Below are positions 1,107 to 64,000 of a DNA stretch of 64,000 bases, piece by piece; the stretch's first letter is position 1, and each line of letters opens with the position of its first letter. The position numbers and the translations under genes were made by a program. This DNA is from Escherichia phage vB_EcoM_WFH. The notes below the pieces were generated by a model. It saw only the letters and a list, made by a program, of their open reading frames with translations, had not been told where the DNA came from and made no database searches. The stretch is from sequence record NC_048194.1. One strand, 5' to 3'.

Positions 1107-1123
1107 GATAACCTCTTTAAATT

Positions 1124-2064: not shown

Positions 2065-2109
2065 AAAGATCACCCTTTATCCACTACTAAGCTGGAATCA
2101 CAATTTTAC

Positions 2110-2139
2110 TTGATATAGCTGTCGCAAGCAAACTATAAT
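2110..2139 (+). promoter_or_regulatory. sigma70-like promoter (TTGATA-18-TATAAT)
   Basis: Near-consensus -35 and -10 hexamers with 18-bp spacer; the -10 abuts the annotated ATG at 2140, so the true terminase start may be the downstream Met at 2173. Confidence 0.45.
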
Positions 2140-3600: not shown

Positions 3601-3603
3601 CAA

Positions 3604-3843: not shown

Positions 3844-4256
3844 TTGATAATCCCCTTGATGTCTGATTCTGCCATAAAGATTGGAGTGCCGCCGCCAGGA
3901 ACAATCGAGCGCGTGACCTTGTCAAACATATCGTTTTCTTCAACTTGAATACGATAAAATTTATTTTTGGATGAAGATGGGCACAATCCCATAAATTTGC
4001 CGATGCCGCGAACGCATTCATCTTCAAAGTATACTGTTTCACCTTGAATGGAGTCGATGTCGTCTACTGGATAGACCTTGCGACCCAATAGCCACTCATC
4101 CAAAGTCGCCTGCAAGACGTTGCGCGCATCTAAAATCCACGGGTCAATAGTAGCACCTTCATATCGCGCAGCAGTGGCCTTTGCCAGTTCTTCATATTCG
4201 CATACGTTAACGACTTCGCCGTTGTGCAAGACGACAAATACAATTGTTGTGCTCAT
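3840..4256 (-). CDS. hypothetical protein (138 aa)
   Basis: Track ORF with ATG start, overlapping stop of downstream gene (operon pair); no recognised motif. Confidence 0.4.
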   Translation of the reverse strand: MSTTIVFVVLHNGEVVNVCEYEELAKATAARYEGATIDPWILDARNVLQATLDEWLLGRKVYPVDDIDSIQGETVYFEDECVRGIGKFMGLCPSSSKNKFYRIQVEENDMFDKVTRSIVPGGGTPIFMAESDIKGIIK

Positions 4257-4418
4257 TTCAATCTCCTTTCGTTTGGTTAACTAAAATATAACTCAAAATG
4301 ATACAAAAGCAAAATATTTTATGAACTATTTATGATCACCATACATATCATTTGCTTACAAACACATGAATATTTATAATATAGATTGATTCCCTTTCAC
4401 TGTCAGGTGGCGTTAACA

Positions 4419-6794
4419 ATGAAAATTCTTGGCATAAAACTCTGGGAGAAGACGCAACCAGAAGCCGAACCAGCGGAGATGCCGCCAGGCGACCCATTGG
4501 CACCGTTTGAACGCCTTGAAAGGCGCGGCAGCGGTCAACGCTGGGAAAAGACTGAAAGCAATCGACCGACCTTTAAAACGGTTGATGACTTCCCTTTATA
4601 TGAGCCTGATATTAATGGCGATGGTGTTGCAATCATAAAAGGTCGTTCAGTCGATTCCGCAACAGTATCCAAAAAGGTTATGGATAATGCCTTAAAGAAC
4701 ATCAGTTCAGAAGGGCAAGTCAACCCATACACAGTACCTATTCAACTTCAAAACTGGTATTTGTCACAGTCATTCATCGGCTATCAAGCTTGTGCCATCA
4801 TCGCACAGCATTGGCTGGTGAACAAGGCATGTTCCATGGTAGGCCGCGATGCGGTCCGTAAAGGTTGGGAAGTCAAATCCAGTTCTGAGTCAGAATTGTC
4901 AGTACAGGCAAGCGAACGCCTAAAGCAAATTGATAAAGAATTTAATATCAAAGAGCACTTAGTTGAAGCCGAACGATTCAAAAATATTTTTGGTATCCGC
5001 GTCATCATATTTGATGTGCGTAGCGATGACCCAGAATATTACAGCAAGCCTTTTAACATTGATGGCGTGACAAAGGGGTCTTATAAGGGAATCATTCAGG
5101 TTGACCCTTATTGGATGATGCCGTTTCTGACGTCTGAAAACACCGCCGACCCTGCATCACAGCACTTCTATGATCCAGAATACTGGGTGATCAGCGGACA
5201 ACGTTATCATCGCAGCCACCTAATCATCTTGCGCAATGATGAGCCAGCTGATATTCTCAAGCCAACTTATATTTACGGCGGCATTCCTCTGACTCAGCAG
5301 ATTTATGAACGCATCTATGCCGCTGAACGTACCGCTAACGAAGCGCCATTGCTGGCAATGTCCAAGCGTACAACCACGCTGCGGACAGACGTTGACAAGG
5401 CGATTGCCAATGAGCGGTCTTTTGCAGAACGTCTGATGATGTGGATCAAGTACCGCGACAACTATGCAGTCAAAGTGCTTGGCCAAAAAGAAGAGATGGA
5501 CCAGTTTGACATTAACTTGTCAGACTTCGACAGCATCATCATGAACCAGTACCAGCTTGTGGCCGCAATCGCAAAAGTTCCGTCGACCAAACTGCTTGGG
5601 ACTTCGCCAAAAGGCTTTAACGCCACTGGTGAATTCGAGATGGTCAGCTATCACGAAGAGTTGGAAACGTGCCAGCAGCATGACCTGACAAAAATTCTCG
5701 ACCGCCATTACAAAATCCTTCTCAAATCAGAAGGGGTGGATGTCGATGTTAAGGTTGCATGGGAACCAGTTGGCTCACTTACTGCTACTCAACTTGCAGA
5801 AATCAATGATAAGCGAGCCAACACTGGCAAAACTCTTATTGATGCTGGCGTCATTTCTCCTGATGAAGAGCGCGACCGCATCAAAGACGACAAAAACAGC
5901 GGCTACAACCGTCTGCCGGAAGACGCAGCAGAAGAAACCCCAGGGATGTCTCCAGAGAATATGGCATTGCTTGGCAAGTCTGCTGGTGAAGTCCTGCAAG
6001 GTAAGGCCGATATTGAACAGGCGAAAGCTGATGTCGTTAAGATGGGCGGCCAGTTCTATAGCGAAACAGGTATTATGCCAGAGGGTGCCGCGCGTGGTGA
6101 GTTGGCGGAAAACCCTGACAAAGCGCCTGTCGAAATCAACATGGACGATACCGATGATGAATCAAGCCATCAGGTTGATGTCCTAACGCAGTTGAAAGAA
6201 GGGCTGGAGGGTATTGCGGATTACTACCTGAAAGAAGGTCAGGATGTGGATTTTGACCCTCAAAAAGATTCACGGTCGGTGCAACCGTCTACCCTTCCAA
6301 GCGTTAAAGGACACGTCGTCAACTTACGCCACAACGTGGGTAAAATGGACGCAGCATCATTACCTAAGATGAAGTTGCACGGAATGATTCTTGGCATTGA
6401 GAATCCGCGAAACAGCATTCGTAGAGGAAACAGCCTTGACGGTGAATGGGCCGTGAAGATGCCGCACCACTACGGATTCATCAAGGGCACCAAGGGCGCA
6501 GACGGTGATGAAGTCGACTGCTTTGTGGGTCCAAATCTGAAGTCGCCGAAAGTCTTTATCGTGAACCAAAACGATAACTACTCTGGCGAGTTTGATGAAC
6601 ACAAGTGTATGCTTGGATTCGATTCAGCAGAAGAAGCGAAAGAAGCTTATCAAGCATCATTTGGTAACGGTTGGAACGGATTCGACTCAATCCACGAATT
6701 AGATGTGAACTCATTCAAGGAGTGGTTGAAGGGTGATTGCTCTCAAGCATACGGAGCACTCAATAATCCTACTAATTCACCGAAGCAAGGTTGA
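4419..6794 (+). CDS. putative portal protein with C-terminal inorganic-pyrophosphatase-like domain
   Basis: ATG at 4419 with RBS aggtgg (track start 4386 is TTG). Position immediately after terL and size suggest portal; C-terminal ~120 aa carry DGDEVDC (PPase signature pattern) and GFDSAEEAKEAYQASF resembling E. coli Ppa C-terminus. Confidence 0.55.
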   Translation: MKILGIKLWEKTQPEAEPAEMPPGDPLAPFERLERRGSGQRWEKTESNRPTFKTVDDFPLYEPDINGDGVAIIKGRSVDSATVSKKVMDNALKNISSEGQVNPYTVPIQLQNWYLSQSFIGYQACAIIAQHWLVNKACSMVGRDAVRKGWEVKSSSESELSVQASERLKQIDKEFNIKEHLVEAERFKNIFGIRVIIFDVRSDDPEYYSKPFNIDGVTKGSYKGIIQVDPYWMMPFLTSENTADPASQHFYDPEYWVISGQRYHRSHLIILRNDEPADILKPTYIYGGIPLTQQIYERIYAAERTANEAPLLAMSKRTTTLRTDVDKAIANERSFAERLMMWIKYRDNYAVKVLGQKEEMDQFDINLSDFDSIIMNQYQLVAAIAKVPSTKLLGTSPKGFNATGEFEMVSYHEELETCQQHDLTKILDRHYKILLKSEGVDVDVKVAWEPVGSLTATQLAEINDKRANTGKTLIDAGVISPDEERDRIKDDKNSGYNRLPEDAAEETPGMSPENMALLGKSAGEVLQGKADIEQAKADVVKMGGQFYSETGIMPEGAARGELAENPDKAPVEINMDDTDDESSHQVDVLTQLKEGLEGIADYYLKEGQDVDFDPQKDSRSVQPSTLPSVKGHVVNLRHNVGKMDAASLPKMKLHGMILGIENPRNSIRRGNSLDGEWAVKMPHHYGFIKGTKGADGDEVDCFVGPNLKSPKVFIVNQNDNYSGEFDEHKCMLGFDSAEEAKEAYQASFGNGWNGFDSIHELDVNSFKEWLKGDCSQAYGALNNPTNSPKQG

Positions 6795-6795
6795 T

Positions 6796-7647
6796 ATGGC
6801 TTTTAAAGCTTCGAAAAAACGTGAACGCCGCTCACCCGATAGAATCGGGCGCGGCAGTCCGATAATCCCATCAAACGCTATTGCGATGGCCTACCGTCGT
6901 GAGATGAAAGGTCTTTGCTATGCGATGATTGATGACTATCAGGCAGGAATTTCAGAGTGGCTTGAAAAGAAGCAGGTGCAGAAGTTCTTTGCGCAAGACT
7001 CTGCTGATTCAACATTCCAAACTCTTATGAAACGTCTGCAGCTGAAATGGGCAAAGGCGTTTGCTCGTGTTGGGTCGAAGATTGCCGCTGATTTTATCAA
7101 GTCGGTTGAAAAGGGTGCTACTTCTGCTACATTCGCCAGCCTTAAGTCCGCAGGCATAGAAGCGCCAAAGGCCACATATAACAAATTCGTTGAGAACACT
7201 CTTAGAACAAGCGAGACGTTTAACACGACTCTAGTGACTAAGGTCGGCGAGGATATTCACAACAGAGTGTACGAAGCAGTCATGCTTTCGCTGACTTCGC
7301 CCGACCCAGCCCAGCAAGGCACGTCAGGCATTCAGGCGGCGCTGCGAAACGTAAAACACTTCTCTGCAAAGAGAGTCGACTTAATCGCTAAAGACCAGAC
7401 AAGCAAATTGTATTGCGTTCTAAGCGATGAAAGGATGCGCCAGAATGGAGTTGAAGAATTTGAATGGGCGCACTCAGGAGCAGGAAAGGAGCCGCGAATC
7501 TCTCATGAACATGTCGACGGAATGAGATTCAAACTTGATGACAAGCGTCTATGGGAAGTGGGCGGAGAGTTGAAGTTCAAAAAGGGTGACATCGGTCCTC
7601 CTGGATGGGCGATACACTGCAAGTGCAGAAAAATACCAATCATTTGA
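6796..7647 (+). CDS. head morphogenesis protein (Mu gpF / SPP1 gp7-like)
   Basis: ATG at 6796 directly after portal stop (track start 6733 is an upstream GTG overlapping portal); C-terminal ...GPPGWAIHCKCRK motif typical of MuF-like family. Confidence 0.6.
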   Translation: MAFKASKKRERRSPDRIGRGSPIIPSNAIAMAYRREMKGLCYAMIDDYQAGISEWLEKKQVQKFFAQDSADSTFQTLMKRLQLKWAKAFARVGSKIAADFIKSVEKGATSATFASLKSAGIEAPKATYNKFVENTLRTSETFNTTLVTKVGEDIHNRVYEAVMLSLTSPDPAQQGTSGIQAALRNVKHFSAKRVDLIAKDQTSKLYCVLSDERMRQNGVEEFEWAHSGAGKEPRISHEHVDGMRFKLDDKRLWEVGGELKFKKGDIGPPGWAIHCKCRKIPII

Positions 7648-7654
7648 GGTCATT

Positions 7655-8575
7655 ATGACGATACCAATCAGCACGTTTCCTCTATCTGGACAAACGCCAG
7701 TATTGCCTGCTGTATATGCTAACGGTTTGGCGATTGTTTCGGAATTCACATCCGATAAAAACCTGATTGTTCCATTGAGTCCGCCATTGGCGTCTGGATA
7801 CAATTCAGTTGGCCAGTTCTTTATGATCGGTAATGATGGCGATTCTACCAGCAAGCCGAATCTGACACTTTCAGTTCCCAAAATGAACATAACAGACGTG
7901 CAGACTGGTTTAACTGCATCTACGATCACCATCGCTTTTGGAGAAGCAGTGATTATAGGCATGGAGTCTGGAGGGTCCAATAATGCTGTCGCCGTTAAGG
8001 TAGTCAAATCCAGCAGCAACCAATACACACTACCAGCGGCAACGGCTTCTATTCTCGGCGGCGTCAAAATAGGAAGTGGCATAAGCGTTGCAGGTGACGG
8101 TACAATTAGTGTGACTCAATACTCATTACCGATTGCATCAGCATCAACCTTGGGTGGCATAAAGGTAGGAACGACACTATCAATTGATGGTTCTGGCGTC
8201 CTTAATGCTGCTGCAAGTACTGTGCAGAACGCAAGCAACAGCGTAAGCAATCCTCCGACAACTCTGGTGAATCTGGCAACCTTAAACCTGCCTGCAGGGA
8301 AATGGCTTGTGACAGCAAGTCAGTTGACTGTCGCGACAGCAGGAGTTCAAGCGAATACCGGAATTACAGTCAAACTGTCAACAAGTAATTCAGATATTAC
8401 GGATGATGCATTTACAATGTCAGCTGGAATTCGGGCTGCAGGTCGTTTCGGCGGCAATATTCCAACAAAGATAATTACCCTTGCCGCGCCTGGCAACGTG
8501 TATCTAAACTATCAATGCACAGACGCATTGACATCTACCGTTTACGGACAGATCACCGCAATTAAGTTGAACTAA
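7655..8575 (+). CDS. virion structural protein with fibre-like internal repeats
   Basis: ATG at 7655 with RBS gagg; repeated ...ASILGGVKIGSGISV.. / ..ASTLGGIKVGTTLSI.. units, Ser/Thr/Gly-rich. Confidence 0.45.
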   Translation: MTIPISTFPLSGQTPVLPAVYANGLAIVSEFTSDKNLIVPLSPPLASGYNSVGQFFMIGNDGDSTSKPNLTLSVPKMNITDVQTGLTASTITIAFGEAVIIGMESGGSNNAVAVKVVKSSSNQYTLPAATASILGGVKIGSGISVAGDGTISVTQYSLPIASASTLGGIKVGTTLSIDGSGVLNAAASTVQNASNSVSNPPTTLVNLATLNLPAGKWLVTASQLTVATAGVQANTGITVKLSTSNSDITDDAFTMSAGIRAAGRFGGNIPTKIITLAAPGNVYLNYQCTDALTSTVYGQITAIKLN

Positions 8576-8585
8576 AGAGGAAGTT

Positions 8586-8723
8586 ATGCAAAAGATTATT
8601 CAGTCACGTTACGTTAAAGTGCGAAATATTAATTGCAACTCTTTGCTTTCTTGGAAATGGGCTGTTTACGACTCGATGCTGATTGGCGTTTTAGTTGCTG
8701 GAGTGCTTTTTAATATTCACTGA
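8586..8723 (+). CDS. small hydrophobic ORF (45 aa)
   Basis: Good RBS aaagaggaa upstream of ATG; product MQKIIQSRYVKVRNINCNSLLSWKWAVYDSMLIGVLVAGVLFNIH; below track size cutoff. Confidence 0.25.
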   Translation: MQKIIQSRYVKVRNINCNSLLSWKWAVYDSMLIGVLVAGVLFNIH

Positions 8724-8756
8724 ATCGCCTGGCAATGGATTGCCGCAGGATTTTAC

Positions 8757-9040
8757 GCGTATAATGACGTATCATCCGTATCAAGTAAGTAGTTGTTTTC
8801 AAAAGAATCTTACGGATGATACGGATGATACGCGTTGCCGCGATACTTTATAGGAATTCAAATAAATTAATTTAAAATTATATATCTAATTTAATTTTAT
8901 TTTTTTATAAACTCTTATATATGAAAAGTATCCGTATCATCCGTATCATCCGTAGCACACCAGTGATAGCGCGGCTTATACACCGATACGGATAAAAATA
9001 CGCCTCATTTTATCCGTATCATCCGTATCACACTAATTAA
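8757..9040. repeat. iteron module copy A: tandem/inverted 9-mers (CCGTATCAT / TTATCCGTA) flanking an AT-rich spacer
   Basis: gcgtataatgacgta..., cttacggatgatacggatgatacgcg, ~90-bp AT-rich tract, then tccgtatcatccgtatcatccgta and ttatccgtatcatccgtatca; 45-bp core nearly identical (2 mismatches) to 60229-60273. Confidence 0.7.
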
Positions 9041-9145
9041 GGCGCGACTATATCGGTTGTTATACATATTCAAACCATAATTATTGTTTGCCTAAGTTTT
9101 TTTCATTAGATATAATACACAATACTTATTTGAGGGTGGATGCGA

Positions 9146-10558
9146 ATGCAAACGGCACGCGAAATTGACAAAAATGGATTCTTGACGATTGTGGGTTGTC
9201 CCATTTCGTCATTTGGCATTTTTGATTATTCTGCAGGTCAGGTTGGACTTGATGGTGATCCGAATCGCATCGTAAAAGTTTATCGCCCAGAGTCAGCGGT
9301 GAAAGACCCCGAAGCGATAGATTCATTCAAAAATATCCCTTTCATCGACAATCACGAAATGCTTTCTGGATTCGAAGGTGATGAGGATAACACAGCACCC
9401 GAAGAGTATGGCGTTGATGGCGTTCTAACTGGCAATGTTTATTATGACAAGCCATGGATGCGCGGCGACCTTAAAGTTTTTAGCCGTCGTCTGAAGAAGG
9501 CCATCGATTCTGGAAAGGTTGACTTGTCTTTGGGCTATGACTGTGAATTCATCATACAGTCTGGAGAGTTTGACGGGCAGCCGTATGAAGTGGTACAGAC
9601 AACTCTTCGCGGCAACCACATTGCTCTCGTGGACGTTGGTCGAGTACCAGGTGCACGGGTGCTGGATGGTCGTTGCTTTGACCATCTTTGTTTGACGACT
9701 GTAACACCATCCAACGAGGATTTAGACATGCCAAAACCGTTAAAAGGTAAAGCGCGTGATAATGCTGTTGAACAGCTGAAATCACTGATCCCTGCGCTCG
9801 AACAATTTCTGAATGAAGAGAGCACCGAAGCTGCTCATCAGGACGAAGTTGAAGTGAAAGCAGAAGAGAAGGATTCAACCGAAGAACGTGAAGAAGTGAT
9901 GGTTGATCCAGAAGTCAAAGCAGAAGCTGAAGAGACTCCAGAAGGTGAAGAGAAGTTTGAAGTTGAAACTGAATCTCACGCTGGCGGCGAGCTTCCGCAA
10001 CTGATCAGCCAAATCGAAGCACTTATTGCAAAACTGAAAGGTGGCGCGGTAGGTGATGAAGAAGAAGTTGAAGCCGAAGTCAAAGACGAAGAAGTTGAAG
10101 TCAAGGCTGAAGATGTATCACCTTGCGACAAAGCTGAAGATGTGGTTAGCGGCCTGCAAAACAGCAACGTAAAGGGGGCTTCGGTCGAAAAAGATGACAA
10201 ACCGACAAAAGCGGCGAAAGCGTCGCCAGGTCCAGCAAAAGGGGAACACTCAATGGCATCTGATTCAGCAGTTGCTGCTTTCTACGCTGATTCTGCTCGT
10301 AAGAATAGCCTCTACCAGCGCCTGTCTAAAGTTGTTGGTGCCTTTGATCATGCAACTATGGACTCCAAGTCCGTAGCGAAATATGGCGCTAAAAAGTTAG
10401 GCTTGAAGTGCGTTGATGGTGCTGAGTTTGACGTGGTGGATAATTATCTGCGCGGCGTTGAACACGGTCAAAAACAGCGTGTAGTCGCAAAACAAAAGGC
10501 CGCTGCGGATTCTGCAGCAACTGACGAAGCATTTGAAGCTTGGTTGAAAGGGGAATAA
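9146..10558 (+). CDS. putative scaffolding protein (possibly protease-scaffold fusion)
   Basis: Position between MuF-like and capsid genes; long highly acidic Glu-rich central region (EEREEVMVDPEVKAEAEETPEGEEKFEVETE...); RBS gagggtgg. Confidence 0.45.
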   Translation: MQTAREIDKNGFLTIVGCPISSFGIFDYSAGQVGLDGDPNRIVKVYRPESAVKDPEAIDSFKNIPFIDNHEMLSGFEGDEDNTAPEEYGVDGVLTGNVYYDKPWMRGDLKVFSRRLKKAIDSGKVDLSLGYDCEFIIQSGEFDGQPYEVVQTTLRGNHIALVDVGRVPGARVLDGRCFDHLCLTTVTPSNEDLDMPKPLKGKARDNAVEQLKSLIPALEQFLNEESTEAAHQDEVEVKAEEKDSTEEREEVMVDPEVKAEAEETPEGEEKFEVETESHAGGELPQLISQIEALIAKLKGGAVGDEEEVEAEVKDEEVEVKAEDVSPCDKAEDVVSGLQNSNVKGASVEKDDKPTKAAKASPGPAKGEHSMASDSAVAAFYADSARKNSLYQRLSKVVGAFDHATMDSKSVAKYGAKKLGLKCVDGAEFDVVDNYLRGVEHGQKQRVVAKQKAAADSAATDEAFEAWLKGE

Positions 10559-50820: not shown

Positions 50821-52491
50821 ATGTCAATTGAACATGACAATCTTCCAGAGGATACAGGTGATGAATTTGGTGCAATCTTTGACGAAATTCAAGACGCTGG
50901 TGTTTCAGAAGAAATGCAAGCGGCAGAGCAGCAAGGCACCAGAGCTAAAATCAGCCTACAGCACAAGGCTGTTGAGAAAGATGCAGAGCGCATGGAATGC
51001 TACGGTGAAGAAGACTTGGTTGAAAGAGCACGTTTGCTCGCCTCACTTCAGGTAATCAAGTTCCCTCATTATAAACCGACGAAAGATGATTTTGTTCTTC
51101 AGGCGGACCGGACGAGTGACATGAACCGTTATGCGGTTTTCGACGCGTTGTTTGATAAGGGAAGCGGCATCGTCCCATTCCCTCACAAAGATACTTTTCG
51201 TGGACGCTTAGTCGACCATCGCGGCGAAACATTCACCGACCGGACGTTGGAAGTCACAGAGATAGTTGCCGCTGTCGATGCAGCAGGCCTGTCCAACCCA
51301 AACTCACGTCAGGTCGCTCAATCCTATAAGGAATGGGCCATGCGTTATCAGCGCGACGACCTGATGGACTTCTTCTACAAGAAGCTTCCTGAATGGGACG
51401 GTACTGCGCGCATTGAGAAATACCTTATCGAGCTATTCCGACCGTTCGATACAGAGTTAAACCGACAAATCGGTGTGTATTTTTGGCTATCGCTCTATAA
51501 CCGCCTGACCAACCCTGGCTGTCAAGCGCCAATCTCCATCGCGCTCATCGGCGGCCAGAACGCAGGGAAGAGTTATTTTAGTAAGCTGCTTTGCGAAGCT
51601 ATTATGAACGACCGCCACGCAACACCGATTCCGTTGAACTTGGCCGCGCAGAACTTCAACCCGTTCTTGCGAGCTATTACGGGTCGCTCAATTATCGCGA
51701 ACGTTGGCGAGATGACGGGCTTTAAAAAGGCCGACATCGAAAACATGAAGGCATTCCTGACTAAGACGGAAGATGACCTGGACTTCAAATTTGAAGACAC
51801 GCAGGTCAAACCACGCCAGTGGATTGCTATCATGGACGGCAACGAATACGCAGGCATGCAGCGTGACGATACGGGCAACCGTCGTGTGTATCCTATCTTT
51901 GTTGGCCAACTCGCCGACAAGGACGGGCAACCGAACTGGTCAAAAGACTTCCAAGCTGACCTTTCCACTTTGAAAGAAGACGTTTGGCAACTGATGGCTG
52001 AGTGTGCTGCGTGGATGGAGAAGCACGGCGAAGCAGGTTACAACGCGTTTGTCGGTGAAACGTCTCGCATGCTTACTGAGTTCAGTAAGAACGAAATGGA
52101 ACGCGCTCGCGGCGTTATCCGTGATGAGATGGTCGACAACGACCTTGTTGAAGTCGTCATTACCGCGCCTTATGACCGACATCACAGCGGACGCTGGCAC
52201 ATCACCAGTGGTGCAATCGCTATGGGATTCAGAGCTAAGTGCGGCAAGTCGCCTTTCTCACGTACCCTTGCGCCGCACATGTCGAAGCTTGGATTTGAGC
52301 CTGCAACCTATCGCAACCAGCGCGGCTACTTTACGCCGCTGATTAAGAATGAAGCAGGGGAATACATTTCTGACTTGATGACTATCTTAGCGTATCTTAT
52401 TCGCGACGAGTCTGACCCTGAAGATATTGAATTCTTGAAGAAGGTTATTGAACGCAAACGTTCTTTAGGAAGAGATAAGGATGAATTCTGA
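50821..52491 (+). CDS. P-loop NTPase, primase-associated helicase-like (D5/VirE-type)
   Basis: 556 aa; Walker A IALIGGQNAGKSYFSKLL in central region with upstream primase-C-terminal-like segment; RBS ggagga. Confidence 0.45.
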   Translation: MSIEHDNLPEDTGDEFGAIFDEIQDAGVSEEMQAAEQQGTRAKISLQHKAVEKDAERMECYGEEDLVERARLLASLQVIKFPHYKPTKDDFVLQADRTSDMNRYAVFDALFDKGSGIVPFPHKDTFRGRLVDHRGETFTDRTLEVTEIVAAVDAAGLSNPNSRQVAQSYKEWAMRYQRDDLMDFFYKKLPEWDGTARIEKYLIELFRPFDTELNRQIGVYFWLSLYNRLTNPGCQAPISIALIGGQNAGKSYFSKLLCEAIMNDRHATPIPLNLAAQNFNPFLRAITGRSIIANVGEMTGFKKADIENMKAFLTKTEDDLDFKFEDTQVKPRQWIAIMDGNEYAGMQRDDTGNRRVYPIFVGQLADKDGQPNWSKDFQADLSTLKEDVWQLMAECAAWMEKHGEAGYNAFVGETSRMLTEFSKNEMERARGVIRDEMVDNDLVEVVITAPYDRHHSGRWHITSGAIAMGFRAKCGKSPFSRTLAPHMSKLGFEPATYRNQRGYFTPLIKNEAGEYISDLMTILAYLIRDESDPEDIEFLKKVIERKRSLGRDKDEF

Positions 52492-57550: not shown

Positions 57551-58054
57551 ATGAAAATTGAACAACTCGAAGCAGTATTGGAAATGGCCGTAAAGGCAGG
57601 CGCAATCAAAAGCTATCGTCGCGAGAAGTCAGACGATGATGCGAACTTTTGCCGCAACTTCTATATCGTCGGCAACCTTAACGACCACTACACCATCGAG
57701 TGGTATATCAATATCATGACACTTAAGTCGCGCACAATGGAGCTTTGGTGCGATGACATCTGCTTATCTAACACCCATCCATCCTACGACGTTGCGTTGG
57801 CATTCTATTACGGAAGCCGTCAACCTGTCGCCCACATCGGAGAGAAGCATGAGCACCTTAAGGCACGACCAGAGGAATCAATGGAAGGCTGGATTGAATG
57901 GGCTGGAGGAAAGAATCCGGTGCCTGGTAAGAAGGTCATGTTGATGTGGAGGAATGAAGAAAAGTCGTCGTATTCGTCCAATTCGGAGGGATGGCTATGG
58001 CACCACAACGGAAGCGTTTATGACATCATCGCTTATCGCGTCGTGGAGGAATAA
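57551..58054 (+). CDS. hypothetical protein with C-terminal GGxNPVPGK module (paralogue 1)
   Basis: 167 aa; C-terminal WIEWAGGKNPVPGKKVMLMWRNEEKSSYSSNSEGWLWHHNGSVYDIIAYRVVEE shared with 58938..59369. Confidence 0.45.
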   Translation: MKIEQLEAVLEMAVKAGAIKSYRREKSDDDANFCRNFYIVGNLNDHYTIEWYINIMTLKSRTMELWCDDICLSNTHPSYDVALAFYYGSRQPVAHIGEKHEHLKARPEESMEGWIEWAGGKNPVPGKKVMLMWRNEEKSSYSSNSEGWLWHHNGSVYDIIAYRVVEE

Positions 58055-58724: not shown

Positions 58725-58954
58725 CTGATAAACAATACGCAGTCGGACAACGTGACATCGAGCAACTCGACGAAGGCGGCTATTATACGCGCCACATCCA
58801 TGCCATGACGCATGAAGGACTTTACAGCAAGTCAGACATCGCCGCTGAACTGGCCCACCGTGACTTGCAAATTGACATGTTGCATCTTGCTCTTGAGAAG
58901 CAAACGCAAATCGCTATTGAAATTTTGGAGAAGTTAAATGATACAACGTTATGA
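58721..58954 (+). CDS. hypothetical protein (77 aa)
   Basis: ATGA overlap. Confidence 0.4.
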   Translation: MTDKQYAVGQRDIEQLDEGGYYTRHIHAMTHEGLYSKSDIAAELAHRDLQIDMLHLALEKQTQIAIEILEKLNDTTL

Positions 58955-59369
58955 TTTGACATACGATGTGGCGACAGAAGATTTCGACATCACTCCTGTT
59001 CCAGAAAGTCACGAAGGACGTTTTGTTGCATATGAGGACTACGCCGCGCTGGAAGCGAAATATAGTGAAGCGCAACGCGAGTTGGTTGCATTACGCTCAC
59101 AGGTCCGTGATGCGTCTGCGCTCGTTAAGCAGTTGCATGACGTCGTTGCTACTATAGGCGTGGATGCTGATGCGCCGAAGGAGGAAGCGTGGACCGTGTG
59201 GCATGGTGGAGAGAATCCGGTGCCTGGTAAGATGGTGGTGTTTGAATTGCGTTTCGGATATAAATCTAAATCGCCTGCTCTTTCAGATGATTTGAGATGG
59301 AAACGTAAGATGATTGATTGCCCTTCTGCATCAGACATCATAAAGTATCGCGTTGTTAAGGAGGGGTGA
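58938..59369 (+). CDS. hypothetical protein with C-terminal GGxNPVPGK module (paralogue 2)
   Basis: 143 aa; C-terminal WTVWHGGENPVPGKMVVFELRFGYKSKSPALSDDLRWKRKMIDCPSASDIIKYRVVKEG. Confidence 0.45.
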   Translation: MIQRYDLTYDVATEDFDITPVPESHEGRFVAYEDYAALEAKYSEAQRELVALRSQVRDASALVKQLHDVVATIGVDADAPKEEAWTVWHGGENPVPGKMVVFELRFGYKSKSPALSDDLRWKRKMIDCPSASDIIKYRVVKEG

Positions 59370-59859: not shown

Positions 59860-60115
59860 GTCCATGTGGTGTGAGTCTTTATTATCGGATAAAGCGATTG
59901 ATTTGTGTAAATCTATTAGAGGATTGTGGGAAGTGAGTATTGTGACGTGAATTTTGTGCCTTGGATATGTGTGCGAATTTGGAAGAATATTGTACTGTGG
60001 TGTTGTGGGATTGGAGAGGGAATCACTAGGTTTTGGGGCGTGTACCGTGGTGTGTGGGCCTGTAGGCTGCGCCGTCTCTGGGATTGCCGCTTGAAATTAA
60101 AAAGGAGATATAGTT
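59860..60115 (+). other. strand-asymmetric G+T-rich non-coding tract
   Basis: About 250 bp dominated by GTG/TGG/GGG runs on plus strand (C-rich, G-poor on minus strand); the only ORF is a Cys/Trp-rich artefact. Confidence 0.5.
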
Positions 60116-60143
60116 AGCTGGCTAACCTTACGCATAGAATTTA

Positions 60144-60440
60144 AGCGTATAATGACGTAAGATTTGGACCTATCCGTAGTTCACTCCACACACTTCTATG
60201 GTGCGCCGCGACTGGGTTCAGTGGTACATCTTACGGATGATACGGATGATACGCGTCGCCGCTATACTTTATACAACTTTGAAAAAAACAATTAACTCCA
60301 TTTTGAATTAATTTAAATTAATTTTTTTCTACATCCTCATACTTATACTAAACTTATATTTATACGTATTATCCGTAAGATATAAGTAAAAACAAAGACT
60401 TGCGGCAATACGGATGATACGTCATGATACGCTTCAACCA
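60144..60440. repeat. iteron module copy B (homologous to 8757-9040)
   Basis: gcgtataatgacgta...; tcttacggatgatacggatgatacgcgtcgccgctatactttata (45-bp core, 2 mismatches vs copy A); AT-rich spacer; ttatccgtaag and caatacggatgatacgtcatgatacgc. Confidence 0.7.
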
Positions 60441-60578
60441 GCCAGCAGCGGCTAAGTCATTGATTTGCATAACAAGCGGCGAAAGGGATGGATTTCTTTT
60501 ATGCGTATCAAACAGTACACCACGCACCACGGTCCGATATTCATTCAGCACTATGATTTATGTACTTTTACAGCCAAT

Positions 60579-60605
60579 TTGAACATCAATCTGCACTTGA
60601 ATATA
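60579..60605 (+). promoter_or_regulatory. promoter-like element (TTGAAC ... TGnAATAAT) upstream of TerS-like gene
   Basis: -35-like TTGAAC and extended -10-like TGAATAAT about 50 bp upstream of ATG 60658, followed by two tandem ATTTGCACTATG repeats. Confidence 0.35.
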
Positions 60606-60657
60606 ATGTTCAATCATTGTATAATTCACACTATTAATTTGCACTATGGGATTTGCA

Positions 60658-61133
60658 CTATGAGTCAAGATTATGTAGCAATGCCTGAAGACTTTGAAGA
60701 CCCGCGATTTGCAGAGCATAATCAGGCATTATTCGATGAGTTCATTGACCTTGTTATTCAGGGCCATGACATGCGCGCAGCTTTTGCACTAGTATTTGGC
60801 ATGGAGGTTGCGACCGATAACTACACTGGCCAGCGAATCCTGTGCACTCAGCGCAACCCGTACTACAAGATGCGCTACAAAAAGCGCATGGAAGAAATGC
60901 CATTGAAGGAATTGTGGAGCGTAAAAAGTTCCATCCACAATTTAGTGAAGCTTGTGCGTGATCCAGAAGTCGCGGCGTCAGCCAAGCTTAATGCCATTCG
61001 TGAACTGAATATCATCTACGGCATCACGATGATTGATGAAAATGGCAATAGTAAAATGGGCCGTTCCATGGACGATTTCTACAAGGATTTTGGAGAGGCA
61101 GCCAAAGAGGGTGAGCAATTCTCCCGCCACTAG
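60658..61133 (+). CDS. terminase small subunit-like DNA-binding protein (tentative)
   Basis: ATG at 60658 (track ORF 60465 starts upstream in AT-rich non-coding DNA); 158 aa; ...NQALFDEFIDLVIQGHDMRAAFALVFG...RILCTQRNPYYKMRYKK... resembles TerS N-terminal HTH pattern; start codon overlaps a repeat copy. Confidence 0.3.
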
Positions 61134-61150
61134 CCAATTTGCACTATAAA

Positions 61151-61188
61151 ACGGCCCTAGAACACATTTTCTCCACTTCTAGGGCCGT
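61151..61188 (+). terminator. stem-loop (ACGGCCCTAGAA-n14-TTCTAGGGCCGT) downstream of TerS-like gene
   Basis: 12-bp stem; no strong U-tract. Confidence 0.45.
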
Positions 61189-61561
61189 TGGTAATACGAC
61201 GGGGAAGGCTGCAACCATGAACGCGTTAGAAAGTGTATTATTATAAGTCATCTTTTAGTCACTTTACGTAACAATTTACGACCTTCCGCCGTCCAGTCGA
61301 ACGACTCCACCAGCAGATTTGCACTATAACCTAAGACGATGCGCCCCTTCTCGTTATCGACCCGCCAACAAGTCTCGAATAGCATTCGATTTGCACTATT
61401 AACTATCGCCGCAACGCGCGTTGGGTAAGCGCAATTTGCACTATGGTCGTAAAGGGATAAGGTGCGACCACTGCCGATGGACAACGTAGCGATGAGAATA
61501 AGCGTATTCATAAGCCACCAATTTGCACTATGAAAAGCGACCCCGAAGGGCCGCCATTCGA

Positions 61562-62188
61562 TTAGATAATCTGGAAGGTGTAGGACTTGTTGCCGAACTC
61601 GAAGTTCAAGCGCCCAGCTTCCTTAAGCTTCATGCGGAAGCGAATATGTTTGCTATCCGGTAAGCCCAGCGCGGCGAACGCTACGCGGACCGATTTGAAC
61701 TCGCCTACACCCTCGACCATAACGGCGTTACGGGTGAGACGCTTTTGCGCCACTTCCTTGTTATCCCAACTTTTTGCAATACCTTCGCTATTAGAACGGC
61801 GATGGGAAGGAGTTCCATTTTGCACTACGCAATTTGCACTATCGTTTAGGCCGCTCTTAACGAAGGCTTCATACTCTTCGTCGGTCATCGCGTCGAGTTC
61901 TTCCTGAGTCGGCTCGGCCTTTTTAACGACCGCACGCGCCTTATGCGTTTTTACATCGCTGGACACTTCCTCGCGCGGCTTCGCGTCGGGGATGGGCAAT
62001 TCGTTGGACGGCTCATCGAGCGCGTTTAAGGACTCGATTAACGCGATGACGCGAGTCTCAGCGGTGCGACGGTCCACAAACTTCTTAATCGGTTTTGAGC
62101 CGGAGTTGGCATTATAGAATGCAACGAGGTCGGCGGTCTTAGTTGCGATAACGTCGCCGCTAGTAGAAAAGCGATTTAAGCTAACCAT
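61562..62188 (-). CDS. hypothetical protein (208 aa)
   Basis: Track ORF in CpG-rich block; contains two ATTTGCACTAT-type motifs within its coding sequence (61817-61842); no recognised domain. Confidence 0.4.
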   Translation of the reverse strand: MVSLNRFSTSGDVIATKTADLVAFYNANSGSKPIKKFVDRRTAETRVIALIESLNALDEPSNELPIPDAKPREEVSSDVKTHKARAVVKKAEPTQEELDAMTDEEYEAFVKSGLNDSANCVVQNGTPSHRRSNSEGIAKSWDNKEVAQKRLTRNAVMVEGVGEFKSVRVAFAALGLPDSKHIRFRMKLKEAGRLNFEFGNKSYTFQII

Positions 62189-62268
62189 AATAAACTCCTA
62201 TTTGTTAGGGCGCTAGGCGCGAAAGAATTTTATTAAAGCGCCGCGCACGACGCTCTAAAAATCCTCTC

Positions 62269-62583
62269 TTACTCTTCGTCGTCTTCGATTAATTCGAAGG
62301 CGAAGGCATAAGCTTTGCTATCGTAATTAACTAAAACGGCGAGTTCGAACTCGTTAATAAACGCCGTTTTACCGCATAAATTTAATTCCGCATCGACTTC
62401 GAAGAATCCGTTTTCGTCGCGCTCTAAGCGAGAAGCAGCGAGTTGCTCGATTACCGTCGCGTCGTTAATTTCTTCGCCTAAGCGAACGCCGGAGAATTTC
62501 GCGAGAATTTCGCCGTAAGTAAGCGTAACACCCTGGACTTCGGCGGTTGCGTTTTCGAGGGTGAAGCGGGTAACGATAGCCAT
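62269..62583 (-). CDS. small acidic protein, paralogue C (104 aa)
   Basis: RBS aggag; very acidic (ends ...FELIEDDEE); similar size and charge to 62808..63110 and 63217..63507; driven by minus-strand copy of shared promoter module. Confidence 0.45.
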   Translation of the reverse strand: MAIVTRFTLENATAEVQGVTLTYGEILAKFSGVRLGEEINDATVIEQLAASRLERDENGFFEVDAELNLCGKTAFINEFELAVLVNYDSKAYAFAFELIEDDEE

Positions 62584-62651
62584 TTTAAACTCCTAGTTGG
62601 GAGAGGCGTTAACGACCTATTCGTTAACTCATCCCGTCCCGATATGAGTAC

Positions 62652-62679
62652 ATTATAATATAGTGTAGAAAAAAGTAAA
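62652..62679 (-). promoter_or_regulatory. sigma70-like promoter, minus-strand copy of shared module (TTTACT-16-TATAAT)
   Basis: Reverse complement of 62634-62686 reads AAAGTGCTTTACT...TTATAAT...ATATCGGGACGGG, matching the two plus-strand copies. Confidence 0.45.
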
Positions 62680-62723
62680 GCACTTTTTCGATAAAAATGC
62701 GATAAATTATTTTATCTTTTTTC

Positions 62724-62751
62724 TTTACTTCTTCGTACACTCGCGTATACT
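62724..62751 (+). promoter_or_regulatory. sigma70-like promoter, plus-strand copy 1 (TTTACT-16-TATACT)
   Basis: CTTTACTTCTTCGTACACT core shared with 63121-63149; followed by ATATCGAGACGGG. Confidence 0.45.
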
Positions 62752-62807
62752 TGTTTATATCGAGACGGGCGATGGCCCTTTCTTCTACTAGCATCGGGAG
62801 CTTTATT

Positions 62808-63110
62808 ATGACTACTTTAATCTCTTCCATCCTTACTTACGACGAAGACCGCTTAACCGTTCGCTCTCTTATCGCCGCCGTTAACGCGGAACTAGAATCT
62901 AGCGCCATCAAGGTCCGTGCCGTTGCCTTCGTCGGCCTTTCCTTCGACGATATTAAGTATGCAGAGTATAGCGCCATTCGCGTTGTTACTACCGACGATA
63001 ACGCCGTTACCCTTATCGAGACGGTTACGCCGCGCGGCGAAGCGTTAATTATCGTCGAGTATATCGACGTAGAAGGCGATAAAGCTTATAAATATTTTAT
63101 CGCAGAATAA
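62808..63110 (+). CDS. small acidic protein, paralogue A (100 aa)
   Basis: ATG at 62808 with RBS gggag (track start 62751 upstream); MTTLISSILTYDEDRLTVRSL... Confidence 0.45.
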   Translation: MTTLISSILTYDEDRLTVRSLIAAVNAELESSAIKVRAVAFVGLSFDDIKYAEYSAIRVVTTDDNAVTLIETVTPRGEALIIVEYIDVEGDKAYKYFIAE

Positions 63111-63120
63111 CGAAAAGTGC

Positions 63121-63149
63121 TTTACTTCTTCGTACACTAAGACTATAAT
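63121..63149 (+). promoter_or_regulatory. sigma70-like promoter, plus-strand copy 2 (TTTACT-17-TATAAT)
   Basis: AAAGTGCTTTACTTCTTCGTACACT...TATAAT...ATATCGAGAGGGG. Confidence 0.5.
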
Positions 63150-63216
63150 GTTTTATATCGAGAGGGGATGAGGTAGCGAATAGGTCGCTACCCTCCCGAC
63201 TAACTAGGAGAATATT

Positions 63217-63507
63217 ATGATTACTTTAGCCGCTATCCGTTCCGCTCGCGTCGAAACTTCCGAAAACTCTAACGTATTTGGCGAAAAACTTAAAAACGTT
63301 TATCTCTTTAACGTAGATGCGACTATCGAAGAGCTTCATAGTCCTATCGATTTTAGCGAATTTACGGAACTCGAAGAGGAAGATATTACTACCTTCCGCG
63401 TTACTATCGAAGGTAAGGTTTATTTTGCTACGGAGTTCGGCGGCGAATATCTCGCGGTATCCGAAGGCGAAGGCCGTTACTCTTTCTTTAAAATCGTCTC
63501 CTTATAA
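63217..63507 (+). CDS. small acidic protein, paralogue B (96 aa)
   Basis: ATG with RBS aggag; MITLAAIRSARVETSENSNVFGEKLKNVYLFNVDATIEELHSPIDFSEFTELEEEDITTF... Confidence 0.45.
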   Translation: MITLAAIRSARVETSENSNVFGEKLKNVYLFNVDATIEELHSPIDFSEFTELEEEDITTFRVTIEGKVYFATEFGGEYLAVSEGEGRYSFFKIVSL

Positions 63508-63527
63508 TACCCTTCCGTTACTAATAG

Positions 63528-63553
63528 GCCGCGCTTAGTCGCGGCTTTTCTTC
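63528..63553 (+). terminator. intrinsic terminator (GCCGCG-CTTAGT-CGCGGC + TTTTCTTCG)
   Basis: GC stem plus U-tract directly after paralogue B. Confidence 0.6.
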
Positions 63554-63960
63554 GTCCCTATCTCGATGCGCTTCTCCGCGAAAACTCCTTTATCCTTCCC
63601 TTCGTCGTCGCATAATCTTCGTCGAGATGCGCCTTAGTTCGCATAACAGGTATTACGTTAAATGGAGAACATCGCGTAAGTCCTTGTTTTATATAGACAC
63701 CTATATCGGACCGTTAGGGAGGGTCGCGCAAGTCGTTGTTTTATAAAGGCGCAAAACTTTCCCTTCGTTCCGAACTAAAACGAGAAATATGCCGACCCTT
63801 CGCCCGAAAATAGTACGCATGCGAAATTACATGTATCTAGAATAATCCCCACCGATATTATCCTACACGCAATCATTAGCTTTCGAATCATTATGCTTCA
63901 TACTATTATGCGTCGAATCATTCGCTTTCTAATTGTAACGCTGGAAACTGTAACGGCGAT
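63554..63960. repeat. ORF-free tract rich in short direct repeats at window end
   Basis: No ORF of 60 aa or more; recurring short motifs (AATCATT x3, TTCGAATCATT x2, TTGTTTTATA x2, GATGCGC x2, CGCATAA x2, TGTAACG x2); window ends inside it. Confidence 0.4.
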
Positions 63961-64000
63961 TGATTATTGCGTTCGTGTGGTTTTTAGGGCATGGGTCTTT

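What the first reader, a model, noticed from the sequence alone, without database searches (positions are those of the whole stretch)
60636..61842. Nine same-orientation copies of ATTTGCACTAT around and downstream of a TerS-like gene, including an ORF-poor tract
The 11-mer ATTTGCACTAT (one variant ATTTTGCACTAC) occurs nine times in 1.2 kb, always on the same strand: two tandem pairs 14 bp apart (60636/60650, overlapping the start codon of the TerS-like gene, and 61817/61832 inside a minus-strand gene) and five dispersed copies, four of them in the 61190-61560 tract that lacks a convincing ORF. The motif contains TG and CA in a region otherwise depleted of them, which argues for functional constraint. 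Same-orientation short repeats clustered at a small-terminase gene fit a pac-type packaging recognition site (TerS binding repeats). Alternatives are iterons of a replication origin, operators of a phage regulator, or promoters for a dedicated RNA polymerase or sigma factor (CACTAT core resembles the CACTATAG core of T7/SP6 promoters, but the conserved length is only about 12 bp and no RNAP gene is in this window).
Basis: seen in the sequence. Interest (0 to 1): 0.7.

Follow-up and report, generated by a model that had tools for sequence, protein, structure and literature searches.

The report
One-way DNA repeats beside small terminase
A 12-base DNA word is repeated about ten times, always pointing the same way, only in the repeated end-piece of this E. 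coli phage genome around its small-terminase gene; related phage genera keep it, so it is probably where the DNA-packaging protein grips the genome, though this is untested.

Summary
ATTTGCACTAT occurs 8 times exactly, plus 2 close variants, all on the + strand, between 60637 and 61842 and nowhere else in the genome. The window is the last 64 kb of a WFH-type Wifcevirus. Bases 60300-64000 are its 3.7-kb direct terminal repeat (DTR), so the array starts 337 bp inside a physical genome end.

The adjacent gene (60660-61133) is a true small terminase, homologous to the solved E217 TerS decamer (E=9e-33).

The motif (consensus RATYYGCACTAY) is conserved, DTR-only and single-orientation in seven genomes of the Wifcevirus-Kylevirus clade (75 of 75 sites), although TerS falls to 40% identity. 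Selection acts on the DNA: intergenic copies are far more conserved than their flanks (p=2e-5). Copies inside genes use only stop-free frames and change position between orthologs.

More distant TerS relatives (Pbunavirus, MTx and others) lack the array. In kyleviruses it is interleaved with co-oriented Chi sites.

Best reading (about 0.4): a polar array of TerS-binding sites marking the packaging-initiation end of the DTR, which also autoregulates terS. The phage is a fixed-end DTR packager, not a pac/headful one. The promoter, iteron, host Chi-like and peptide-repeat readings are disfavoured. Binding itself could not be tested.

The parts
60300..64000 (.). Right-hand copy of the ~3.7-kb direct terminal repeat (DTR); 60300 corresponds to the left physical genome end
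   Evidence: Window 60300-64000 aligns to bases 1-3701 of the near-identical record PQ604604. Mansfield's PhageTerm DTR is 1-3673, with terS at 361. Korf 2019 reports a ~3.7 kb repeat for WFC/WFH.
60579..60625 (+). Two overlapping sigma-70-type promoters of terS (TTGAAC-17-TATAAT and TTGAAT-17-TATAAT)
   Evidence: Consensus scan, 10 of 12 matches each. This is a consensus match only.
60626..60634 (+). Degenerate motif copy TCACACTAT directly after the -10 box
   Evidence: Read from the sequence. In L048 and L049 the equivalent position holds TATAAT-CT-GCACTAT.
60637..60647 (+). Motif copy 1 (exact), in the terS 5' leader
60651..60661 (+). Motif copy 2 (exact), overlapping the terS RBS spacer and ATG
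60660..61133 (+). terS, small terminase, 157 aa
   Evidence: phmmer hit to PDB 7UXE (E217 TerS decamer), E=9e-33. phrog_4783. AF2 model with Foldseek top hit 7UXE.
60782..60792 (+). Variant copy TTTTGCACTAG inside terS
   Evidence: The position is conserved in L048 (+126), Kyle and PA1.
61137..61147 (+). Motif copy 3 (exact), 3 bp after the terS stop and abutting a minus-strand terminator
61150..61189 (-). Intrinsic terminator hairpin of the minus-strand early operon
   Evidence: Fold -22.5 kcal/mol, z=-3.5, followed by a U-run. Annotated as a terminator in the WFC record.
61248..61511 (-). Conserved 87-aa gene (signal-peptide-like N-terminus, conserved Cys) that carries copies 4-6
   Evidence: Ortholog alignment across 7 genomes.
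61307..61314 (+). Single Chi complement (CCACCAGC), 2 bp before motif copy 4
61317..61327 (+). Motif copy 4 (exact)
61389..61399 (+). Motif copy 5 (exact); the most position-conserved copy (encodes N-S-A-N)
61434..61444 (+). Motif copy 6 (exact)
61521..61531 (+). Motif copy 7 (exact), abutting the terminator of the 208-aa gene
   Evidence: The position is conserved in L048-L050.
61532..61559 (-). Intrinsic terminator hairpin after the 208-aa gene
   Evidence: Fold -18 kcal/mol, z=-3.1.
61562..62188 (-). 208-aa early DTR protein (phrog_4730), family-wide, with an HTH-like C-terminus; carries copies 8-9
61817..61828 (+). Variant copy ATTTTGCACTAC
   Evidence: Lost in Eco4M-7 and ECML-117.
61832..61842 (+). 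Motif copy 9 (exact)
   Evidence: Lost in Eco4M-7 and ECML-117.

Best explanation
The repeats are a polar array of protein-binding sites (consensus RATYYGCACTAY, about 12 bp, asymmetric) in the left third of the direct terminal repeat.

Most likely each site is read by the helix-turn-helix domain of one subunit of the ring-shaped small terminase (TerS) encoded in the middle of the array. Several TerS rings, or several subunits of one ring, would load on the array. This would mark that end of the DTR as the place and direction from which terminase starts packaging: rightward, through terS.

The copies between the terS promoter -10 box and the start codon would also let TerS repress its own gene.

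Shown: the array's existence, uniqueness, polarity, conservation and DNA-level selection; the TerS identity; and the position relative to the genome end.
For: (1) The array exists only in the DTR, 337-1543 bp from the physical left end. The same holds in the full Kyle genome: 12 copies per DTR and 0 in 66 kb of unique sequence.

(2) It always spans terS. Seven genomes with TerS identity of 40-100% carry 7-14 copies each, and 75 of 75 are on the terS strand.

(3) Selection is at the DNA level. Intergenic motif columns are variable in 1 of 42 cases against 194 of 654 for other intergenic columns (p=2e-5). Inside minus-strand genes the copies use only the two stop-free frames (x-S-A-N or I/L-V-Q) and sit at different places in orthologs.

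(4) The gene is a bona fide TerS of the E217 type, with a confidently modelled helical N-domain (pLDDT 83-90).

(5) terS keeps a fixed distance of 357-377 bp from the genome end in three genera, although terL is about 9 kb away. That argues for cis linkage of terS to its site.

(6) In Pbunavirus JG024, packaging initiation was mapped about 600 bp upstream of terS, at a TTCTACA element that is also present just inside the Wifcevirus and Kyle DTR ends (PMC10913387).

(7) All motif-bearing phages have [Q/K/R]-R65 at the end of helix 56-65, where all motif-less relatives have E-[S/A/F]. The latter group includes E217 TerS, which showed no DNA binding in vitro (PMC9611059).

(8) No protein specific to the motif-bearing clade has a recognisable DNA-binding domain. 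The HTH-like C-terminus of the other DTR candidate (208 aa) is nearly invariant even in motif-less genera.
Against: - No binding data exist, and the only characterised member of this TerS family (E217) did not bind DNA in vitro.
- The array is absent from MTx, PCSE1, Pbunavirus, tabernarius, FoX7, BcepF1 and 12 metagenomic relatives. These share the TerS, the terS position and, in MTx, the long DTR. The array therefore cannot be the family's essential packaging signal.
- It spans 1.2 kb with irregular, unphased spacing, much larger than known pac or cosB sites.
- It begins 337 bp from the cut.
- The motif does not change while TerS diverges to 40% identity, so there is no covariation to tie it to TerS.
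- The basic-patch correlation is confounded by phylogeny.
- The pair inside the 208-aa gene is dispensable.
- Interleaving with co-oriented Chi sites in kyleviruses is equally compatible with a role in end processing or recombination.
Confidence: 0.4

Rival explanations
1. The sites are operators for another phage DNA-binding protein, such as an early/late switch regulator. It would coat the left part of the DTR and shut off the early minus-strand operon and the terS promoter. The link to terS would then be positional only.
For: - One to three copies sit between the -10 box and the ATG of terS in Wifcevirus, L048 and L049.
- Copies lie within and at the ends of the early minus-strand operon, directly after both of its terminators.
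- The DTR carries sigma-70-type early promoters.
- Several small uncharacterised proteins are shared only by the motif-bearing clade.
Against: - No candidate regulator with a DNA-binding domain was found.
- Kyle and PA1 have no copy between the terS -10 box and the ATG.
- Strict single orientation regardless of gene direction, with many copies deep inside coding sequence, is unusual for operators.
- The motif is absent from every other promoter region of the genome.
Confidence: 0.2
2. The motif is a polar signal read by an enzyme that travels along the DNA from the genome end. This would be a Chi-like control sequence for a host or phage helicase-nuclease, or for the terminase motor, governing end resection, recombination of the DTRs or packaging termination.
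For: - The motif behaves like Chi: strict orientation relative to the end, many redundant copies, free positional turnover, and tolerance of any context.
- In Kyle, PA1, L049 and L050 it is interleaved, and sometimes fused, with 5-10 Chi complements. All are oriented for RecBCD entering at the left end (TTGCACTAcCCACCAGC).
- Terminal, co-oriented Chi clusters are a documented phage strategy (P1, LLS; PMC12315714).
Against: - The sequence is unrelated to Chi (GCTGGTGG).
- In 200 kb of one E. coli K-12 replichore, YYGCACTA is neither over-represented nor significantly skewed (10 vs 4, expected about 10 and 11). The Chi control gives 45 vs 21 against an expected 4 and 3.
- Wifcevirus and L048 keep the array with only one Chi or none, so the two motifs are separable.
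- No translocase with such specificity is known in Enterobacterales.
Confidence: 0.1
3. The sites are iterons or priming sites of a replication origin. They would be bound by the phage primase-helicase (window 50821-52491) or read as template signals by a phage primase, as with P4 alpha and its ori/crr repeats.
For: - The repeats are short and same-orientation.
- The phage encodes an AEP-type primase-helicase and a DnaG-like primase a few kb upstream in conserved synteny.
- The minus-strand form of the motif contains GTG. (That some AEP primases use GTG is from my own knowledge of pRN1 primase and is a lead only.)
Against: - Spacing is irregular and unphased.
- Most copies lie in coding sequence.
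- There is no AT-rich unwinding element within the array.
- The primase-helicase is conserved in motif-less relatives.
- A more origin-like structure (9-mer arrays plus AT-rich tracts) lies elsewhere, at 8757-9040 and 60141-60430.
Confidence: 0.1
4. The motif acts in RNA. A read-through terS transcript would carry about 10 copies of AUUUGCACUAU, antisense to the early genes, and would serve as a protein-binding or antisense regulator.
For: - All copies lie on the terS-sense strand downstream of a strong promoter.
- The two hairpins downstream of terS are terminators only for the opposite strand.
Against: - No structure or known RNA-binding motif is involved.
- In Kyle and L049-L051 some copies lie upstream of the terS promoter.
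- There are no transcript data.
Confidence: 0.05
5. The copies are promoters for a phage RNA polymerase or sigma factor, given the CACTAT core as in T7/SP6.
Against: - No RNA polymerase gene is annotated in Bas101, Mansfield, Kyle or MTx.
- Only about 12 bp are conserved.
- 7 of 10 copies point antisense into minus-strand genes with no co-oriented gene downstream.
- The motif is absent from all structural and replication operons.
Confidence: 0.03
6. The pattern arises by chance or as a by-product of a repeated peptide in the genes.
For: Three copies in the 87-aa gene all encode S-A-N in one frame.
Against: - 0 of 100 shuffles reach the observed count.
- Copies occur in intergenic DNA, in plus-strand coding and in two different minus-strand frames.
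- 75 of 75 sites share one strand across seven genomes.
Confidence: 0.02

Closest known systems
Lambda cosB (R1-R3 sites for gpNu1) and SPP1 pacL/pacR boxes for G1P
   Same: Short repeated sites for the TerS HTH. They lie next to or overlap the start of the terS gene, beside the DNA end where packaging starts, and they give the complex its polarity.
   Different: Those sites number 3-7 within about 100-250 bp, and some are inverted. Here there are about 10 copies, all co-oriented, spread over 1.2 kb and mostly inside genes on both strands. The phage makes long exact DTRs rather than cos ends or headful cuts. Binding is unproven.
Phage P1 pac (hexamer repeats inside pacA) with a Chi-rich terminal redundancy
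   Same: The recognition repeats lie inside or around the small-terminase gene. In Kylevirus relatives the same terminal region is packed with co-oriented Chi sites (PMC12315714).
   Different: P1 is a headful packager and its repeats are Dam sites flanking the cut (from my own knowledge of P1). In Wifcevirus itself only one Chi remains.
E217 / Pbunavirus small terminase (PDB 7UXE)
   Same: Homologous protein (39% identity, E=9e-33). In both, terS is separated from terL, and packaging starts a few hundred bp upstream of terS (JG024).
   Different: Pbunaviruses are reported as circularly permuted headful packagers. They lack the RATYYGCACTAY array and have Glu where the Wifcevirus clade has Arg/Lys. 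E217 TerS did not bind DNA in vitro.
Chi (GCTGGTGG) clusters at phage genome ends
   Same: Strict orientation relative to the end, redundancy and positional turnover. The two motifs co-occur physically in kyleviruses.
   Different: The sequence is different. It is not enriched or skewed in the host chromosome sample, and no reader enzyme is known.

Membership tests
TerS recognition site (pac / cosB-type repeats) | Located next to the terS gene and to the DNA end or cut where packaging starts | tested here: met
   The array spans terS and starts 337 bp from the DTR left end. The family-level packaging start was mapped upstream of terS in JG024.
TerS recognition site (pac / cosB-type repeats) | Unique in the genome | tested here: met
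   Found only in the DTR in Wifcevirus and in Kyle.
TerS recognition site (pac / cosB-type repeats) | Bound sequence-specifically by TerS | not testable with these tools
   Needs EMSA, footprinting or ChIP. The only biochemical datum in the family is negative (E217; PMC9611059).
TerS recognition site (pac / cosB-type repeats) | Required for packaging, so expected in relatives that use the homologous terminase and terminus | tested here: not met
   Absent from MTx (same DTR layout), PCSE1, Pbunavirus, tabernarius, FoX7, BcepF1 and IMG/VR relatives.
TerS recognition site (pac / cosB-type repeats) | Compact (about 100-250 bp) | tested here: not met
   The array spans 1.2 kb with gaps of 14-486 bp.
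Small terminase, E217 type (the protein at 60660-61133) | Sequence and fold homology to a solved TerS | tested here: met
   7UXE at E=9e-33, or 6.8e-69 with a profile. Foldseek top hit 7UXE, probability 1.00.
Long direct terminal repeat genome | The same sequence at both physical ends, with ends mapped by read termini | tested here: met
   Window 60300-64000 equals bases 1-3701 of PQ604604. PhageTerm DTR in Mansfield and MTx. Korf 2019. No read data were re-analysed here.
Replication-origin iterons | Regularly spaced or phased repeats next to an AT-rich unwinding region and an initiator gene | tested here: not met
   No phasing. Most copies lie in coding sequence. There is no AT-rich tract inside the array.
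T7/SP6-type phage promoters | A phage RNA polymerase gene; about 19-23 bp conserved; a co-oriented gene downstream of each copy | tested here: not met
   No RNAP is annotated in relatives. About 12 bp are conserved. 7 of 10 copies are antisense to genes.
Chi-like host polar motif | Over-represented and strand-skewed with replication in the host chromosome | tested here: not met
   In 200 kb of the K-12 sample: 10 vs 4 (expected 9.6 and 11.3). Chi control: 45 vs 21 (expected 4.1 and 2.7). The sample is small and covers one strain only.
Chi-like host polar motif | Single orientation relative to a DNA end, with redundant copies | tested here: met
   75 of 75 sites on one strand; 7-14 copies per DTR.

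The most novel reading that the evidence does not exclude
The array is a previously unknown kind of polar 'end signal'. It would be a Chi-like word read by a host or phage enzyme travelling in from the genome end, not a static binding site. It would control resection, recombination or duplication of the long terminal repeat. That would explain its strict orientation, its redundancy, the free turnover of copies, and its interleaving with true Chi sites in kyleviruses.
Probability: 0.1. Interest if true: 0.85.

Novelty: new variant of a known kind. Interest (0 to 1): 0.55.

Why it matters
How phages with long exact terminal repeats recognise and cut their ends is poorly understood. The DNA target of the E217-type small terminase is unknown, and the solved protein did not bind DNA in vitro.

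This array gives a concrete, conserved 12-bp candidate site, a natural set of motif-bearing and motif-lacking relatives, and a specific residue swap (R64/R65 versus E-S) to test. Wifcevirus and its Pbunavirus relatives are being developed for therapy and for synthetic rebooting, where knowledge of the ends and packaging signals is directly useful.

If the array is not a terminase site, then a strictly polar, end-proximal signal that co-occurs with Chi would be a new element of phage end biology.

Tried and rejected
- **DnaA box:** 7 of 9 matches to TTWTNCACA, but Kyle variants change the critical T. Rejected by inspection.
- **Sigma-54 -24/-12 element:** the tandem-pair spacing is wrong (N8, not N5).
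- **EcoKI site (GCAC-N6-GTT):** no copy fits.
- **-35 or -10 element of a sigma-70 promoter:** no partner hexamer lies at a fixed distance.
- **Helical phasing:** Rayleigh tests at 9-13 bp were not significant in the window, Kyle or PA1.
- **Codon-phase coincidence:** 6 of 8 copies share the same phase (p about 0.06). This is explained by the TAG stop in the third frame.
no Pfam or PDB relatives even with a profile. Its HTH-like C-terminus is invariant in motif-less genera. The search for homologous proteins returned only near-identical sequences, so I made no structure prediction for it.
- **Own repeat clusters downstream of terS in distant relatives:** none comparable. MTx has a different 21-bp repeat in 3 copies. 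Several relatives have arrays upstream instead.
- **Covariation between TerS and the motif:** impossible to assess, because the motif is invariant across the clade.
- **Phylogenetic profile for clade-specific DNA-binding proteins:** seven candidates, none with a recognised domain.
- **Pseudomonas Chi-like (GCTGGCGC) cluster near the Pbunavirus terS:** none found.
- **Literature search for the motif string:** only unrelated primers.
- **E217 terminase paper (PMC10026623):** not held.
Full report
**1. Observation**

ATTTGCACTAT occurs exactly at 60637, 60651, 61137, 61317, 61389, 61434, 61521 and 61832, always on the + strand. With one mismatch allowed, the only other hit in 64 kb is at 39783, and none of 100 dinucleotide-preserving shuffles reaches 9 hits.

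The variant ATTTTGCACTAC is at 61817-61828. A second variant, TTTTGCACTAG, is at 60782-60792 inside the gene. Degenerate copies lie just upstream; one example is TCACACTAT at 60626-60634, directly after a -10 box.

**2. Where this is**

The window is 99% identical to a 71,283-bp Wifcevirus record and represents its last 64 kb. That length is the one published for phage WFH, described with a terminal repeat of 'about 3.7 kb' (PMC6563267).

Window 60300-64000 aligns to bases 1-3701 of the record. Phage Mansfield was opened at a PhageTerm-predicted 3,673-bp direct terminal repeat whose base 1 corresponds to window 60300 (PMC6753283).

The array therefore lies 337-1543 bp inside a physical genome end, in both DTR copies. 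It occurs nowhere else: not in the rest of the window and not in Mansfield 1-10,200 outside the array. Mansfield covers the part of the genome missing from the window. The PQ604604 record has a run of 1738 N there, so I did not rely on it.

**3. The neighbouring gene**

The 157-aa product of 60660-61133 has no Pfam hit. It does match the solved decameric small terminase of Pseudomonas phage E217 (PDB 7UXE) at E=9e-33, or 6.8e-69 with a family profile. An AlphaFold model has mean pLDDT 72.7, rising to 83-90 in the N-terminal helical domain, and its best Foldseek match is 7UXE.

TerL lies about 9 kb away, at window 2140-3600. [quoted passage not shown]

terS starts 357-377 bp from the genome end in Wifcevirus, in Kylevirus Kyle and in Myosmarvirus MTx.

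**4. Local anatomy**

- Two overlapping sigma-70-type promoters (60579-60625) precede terS, and the tandem copies lie between the -10 box and the ATG.
- The 61190-61560 tract is not ORF-poor. It holds a conserved 87-aa minus-strand gene with a signal-peptide-like N-terminus and conserved cysteines.
- Two minus-strand intrinsic terminators (61150-61189 at -22.5 kcal/mol; 61532-61559 at -18 kcal/mol) are each followed immediately by a motif copy. One of them is annotated in the WFC record.
- A single Chi complement (61307-61314) sits 2 bp before copy 4.

**5. Conservation**

All ten wifceviruses compared carry the copies at the same positions. In their alignment, intergenic motif columns vary in 1 of 42 cases, against 194 of 654 for other intergenic columns (Fisher p=2e-5). 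The pair inside the 208-aa gene is lost in two genomes.

The motif is also present in:
- the Pantoea kyleviruses Kyle and PA1 (TerS 40-44% identical);
- four assembled contigs whose TerS is 70%, 53%, 50% and 45% identical.

In every case there are 7-14 copies, all on the terS strand, from about -110 to +1170 relative to the terS start.

Pooling 75 sites gives the consensus R-A-T-Y-Y-G-C-A-C-T-A-Y. In the complete Kyle genome the DTR is 3603 bp and holds 12 copies, while the 66 kb of unique sequence holds none.

Inside minus-strand genes the copies use only the two frames that avoid the TAG stop (x-S-A-N or I/L-V-Q). They sit at different positions in different orthologs. This is DNA-level selection with turnover of individual copies, not a peptide repeat.

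**6. Limits of the distribution**

Other phages with this TerS family lack the array: Pbunavirus (E217, JG024), MTx, PCSE1, tabernarius, FoX7, BcepF1 and twelve IMG/VR contigs. Yet MTx has the same long DTR and the same terS position.

In JG024, long-read starts and a pac fragment place packaging initiation at 59,376 (PMC10913387). That is about 600 bp upstream of its terS (59977-60546) and 8-15 bp after a TTCTACAG element. The same element lies 27-34 bp inside the Wifcevirus DTR end and at 39-45 in Kyle.

So the family's packaging start is upstream of terS, and the 12-mer array is a clade-specific addition to that region.

**7. Who reads it?**

Both TerS and the 208-aa DTR protein are conserved across the whole family. 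However, the HTH-like C-terminus of the 208-aa protein is nearly invariant even in motif-less genera, and it has no known relatives.

TerS shows a charge reversal that tracks the motif. All motif-bearing phages have [Q/K/R]-R65-N-P-Y at the end of modelled helix 56-65. All motif-less relatives, including the non-binding E217 protein, have E-[S/A/F]. This is suggestive but confounded by phylogeny.

A phylogenetic profile (present in Wifcevirus and Kyle, absent from MTx and E217) yielded seven small proteins, none with a recognisable DNA-binding domain.

**8. Chi**

In Kyle, PA1, L049, L050 and MTx, the same region carries 4-10 copies of CCACCAGC, the complement of E. coli Chi. All are oriented to be recognised by RecBCD entering at the left end, and some are fused to the 12-mer (TTGCACTAcCCACCAGC).

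Terminal, co-oriented Chi clusters are documented for P1 and LLS (PMC12315714).

Wifcevirus and L048 keep the 12-mer array with only one Chi or none, so the two motifs are separable.

In 200 kb of one E. coli K-12 replichore the 12-mer core is neither enriched nor significantly skewed (10 vs 4; expected 9.6 and 11.3). The Chi control is both enriched and skewed (45 vs 21; expected 4.1 and 2.7). This argues against a host-wide polar motif.

**9. Interpretation**

The best-supported reading, at a confidence of about 0.4, is a polar array of sites for the TerS HTH. It would mark the packaging-initiation end of the DTR, with the promoter-proximal copies autoregulating terS.

This works like lambda cosB or the SPP1 and P1 pac boxes, but it differs from them in several ways:
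- it is dispersed over 1.2 kb;
- it is strictly co-oriented;
- it is largely embedded in genes;
- it belongs to a long-DTR phage;
- it is absent from close functional relatives.

Rivals, in order: operators of another phage regulator (0.2), a translocase-read end signal (0.1), origin or priming sites (0.1), an RNA-level role (0.05), phage-specific promoters (0.03), and chance or a coding artefact (0.02).

No searchable paper mentions the motif.

**10. Verdict**

The feature is real, conserved and undescribed. Its function is not established. It is a new variant of a known kind, the terminase or end-proximal recognition repeat, and it is directly testable.

Noticed in passing
window 61850-63800 (right two-thirds of the DTR): Extreme depletion of TG and CA (odds 0.33/0.35; 41 and 40 observed against about 126 and 116 expected), with CG enriched (2.05) and TA raised (1.20, against 0.65 elsewhere). 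The same is seen at the same DTR coordinates in Mansfield, MTx, L048 and Kyle, but not in Pbunavirus E217. Unexplained; restriction-site or NTG start-codon avoidance are guesses.
   Followed up: partly
window 8757-9040 and 60141-60430: A second repeat family: the 9-mer TACGGATGA in direct and inverted arrays next to very AT-rich tracts, plus a shared GCGTATAATGACGTA. One set flanks the DTR left boundary. The other lies upstream of the head protease-scaffold-capsid operon. The equivalent two regions also share many 9-20-mers in Kyle, MTx and E217, so this is a family-wide duplicated module, probably a shared late promoter or regulatory region.
   Followed up: partly
L011 (Kyle) 255-1972; L012 (PA1); L049; L050; L005 (MTx) 179-1276: Clusters of 4-10 Chi complements (CCACCAGC) in the left part of the DTR. 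All are oriented for RecBCD entering at the left end, and there are almost none elsewhere in those genomes. Wifcevirus retains only one, at window 61307.
   Followed up: partly
L003 3726-3739 and 3823-3836 (just beyond the DTR right boundary; outside the window): Two copies of AAATTTGCAGTACACT, 97 bp apart, conserved in wifceviruses. The sequence resembles the 12-mer with a 3-bp insertion. A nearby CACTAACTTTTC also matches the first bases of the MTx genome.
   Followed up: no
window 60327-60333 (TTCTACA) and 60401-60407 (TGCGGCA): Two single-copy elements between the genome end and terS are conserved across genera. TTCTACA lies next to the mapped JG024 pac start. TGCGGCA lies 120-260 bp upstream of terS in nine lineages. 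They are candidates for the family's core packaging signal.
   Followed up: partly
window 61248-61511 (minus strand): An 87-aa gene specific to the Wifcevirus-Kylevirus clade, with a signal-peptide-like N-terminus, two conserved Cys and a CWR...E-FDW pattern. It is probably a small secreted or membrane early protein.
   Followed up: partly
window 61562-62188 (minus strand): A 208-aa DTR protein (phrog_4730) conserved in every genus of the family. Its C-terminus is nearly invariant (EF-S-RAAF-ALGLPDSKHIRFRMKLK) and looks like an HTH. No Pfam or PDB relative was found.
   Followed up: partly
window 57551-58054 and 58938-59369: Two neighbouring proteins share a C-terminal segment (W-x-W-x-GG-x-NPVPGK-x-V...DIIxYRVV), suggesting paralogous domains.
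   Followed up: no
L051 (3983 bp), L050, L049 and the 3755-bp contig of SRR14005100: Short public assemblies of 3.7-4.0 kb that begin 350-520 bp before terS look like DTRs assembled on their own because of doubled coverage. This offers a cheap way to find DTR boundaries in metagenomes.
   Followed up: no
L005 (MTx) 965-1090: MTx has three copies of a different 21-bp repeat (AAAAAATAAGCATGCTTTGTA, with a palindromic core). They lie in the intergenic region just downstream of its terS, interspersed with Chi complements.
   Followed up: no
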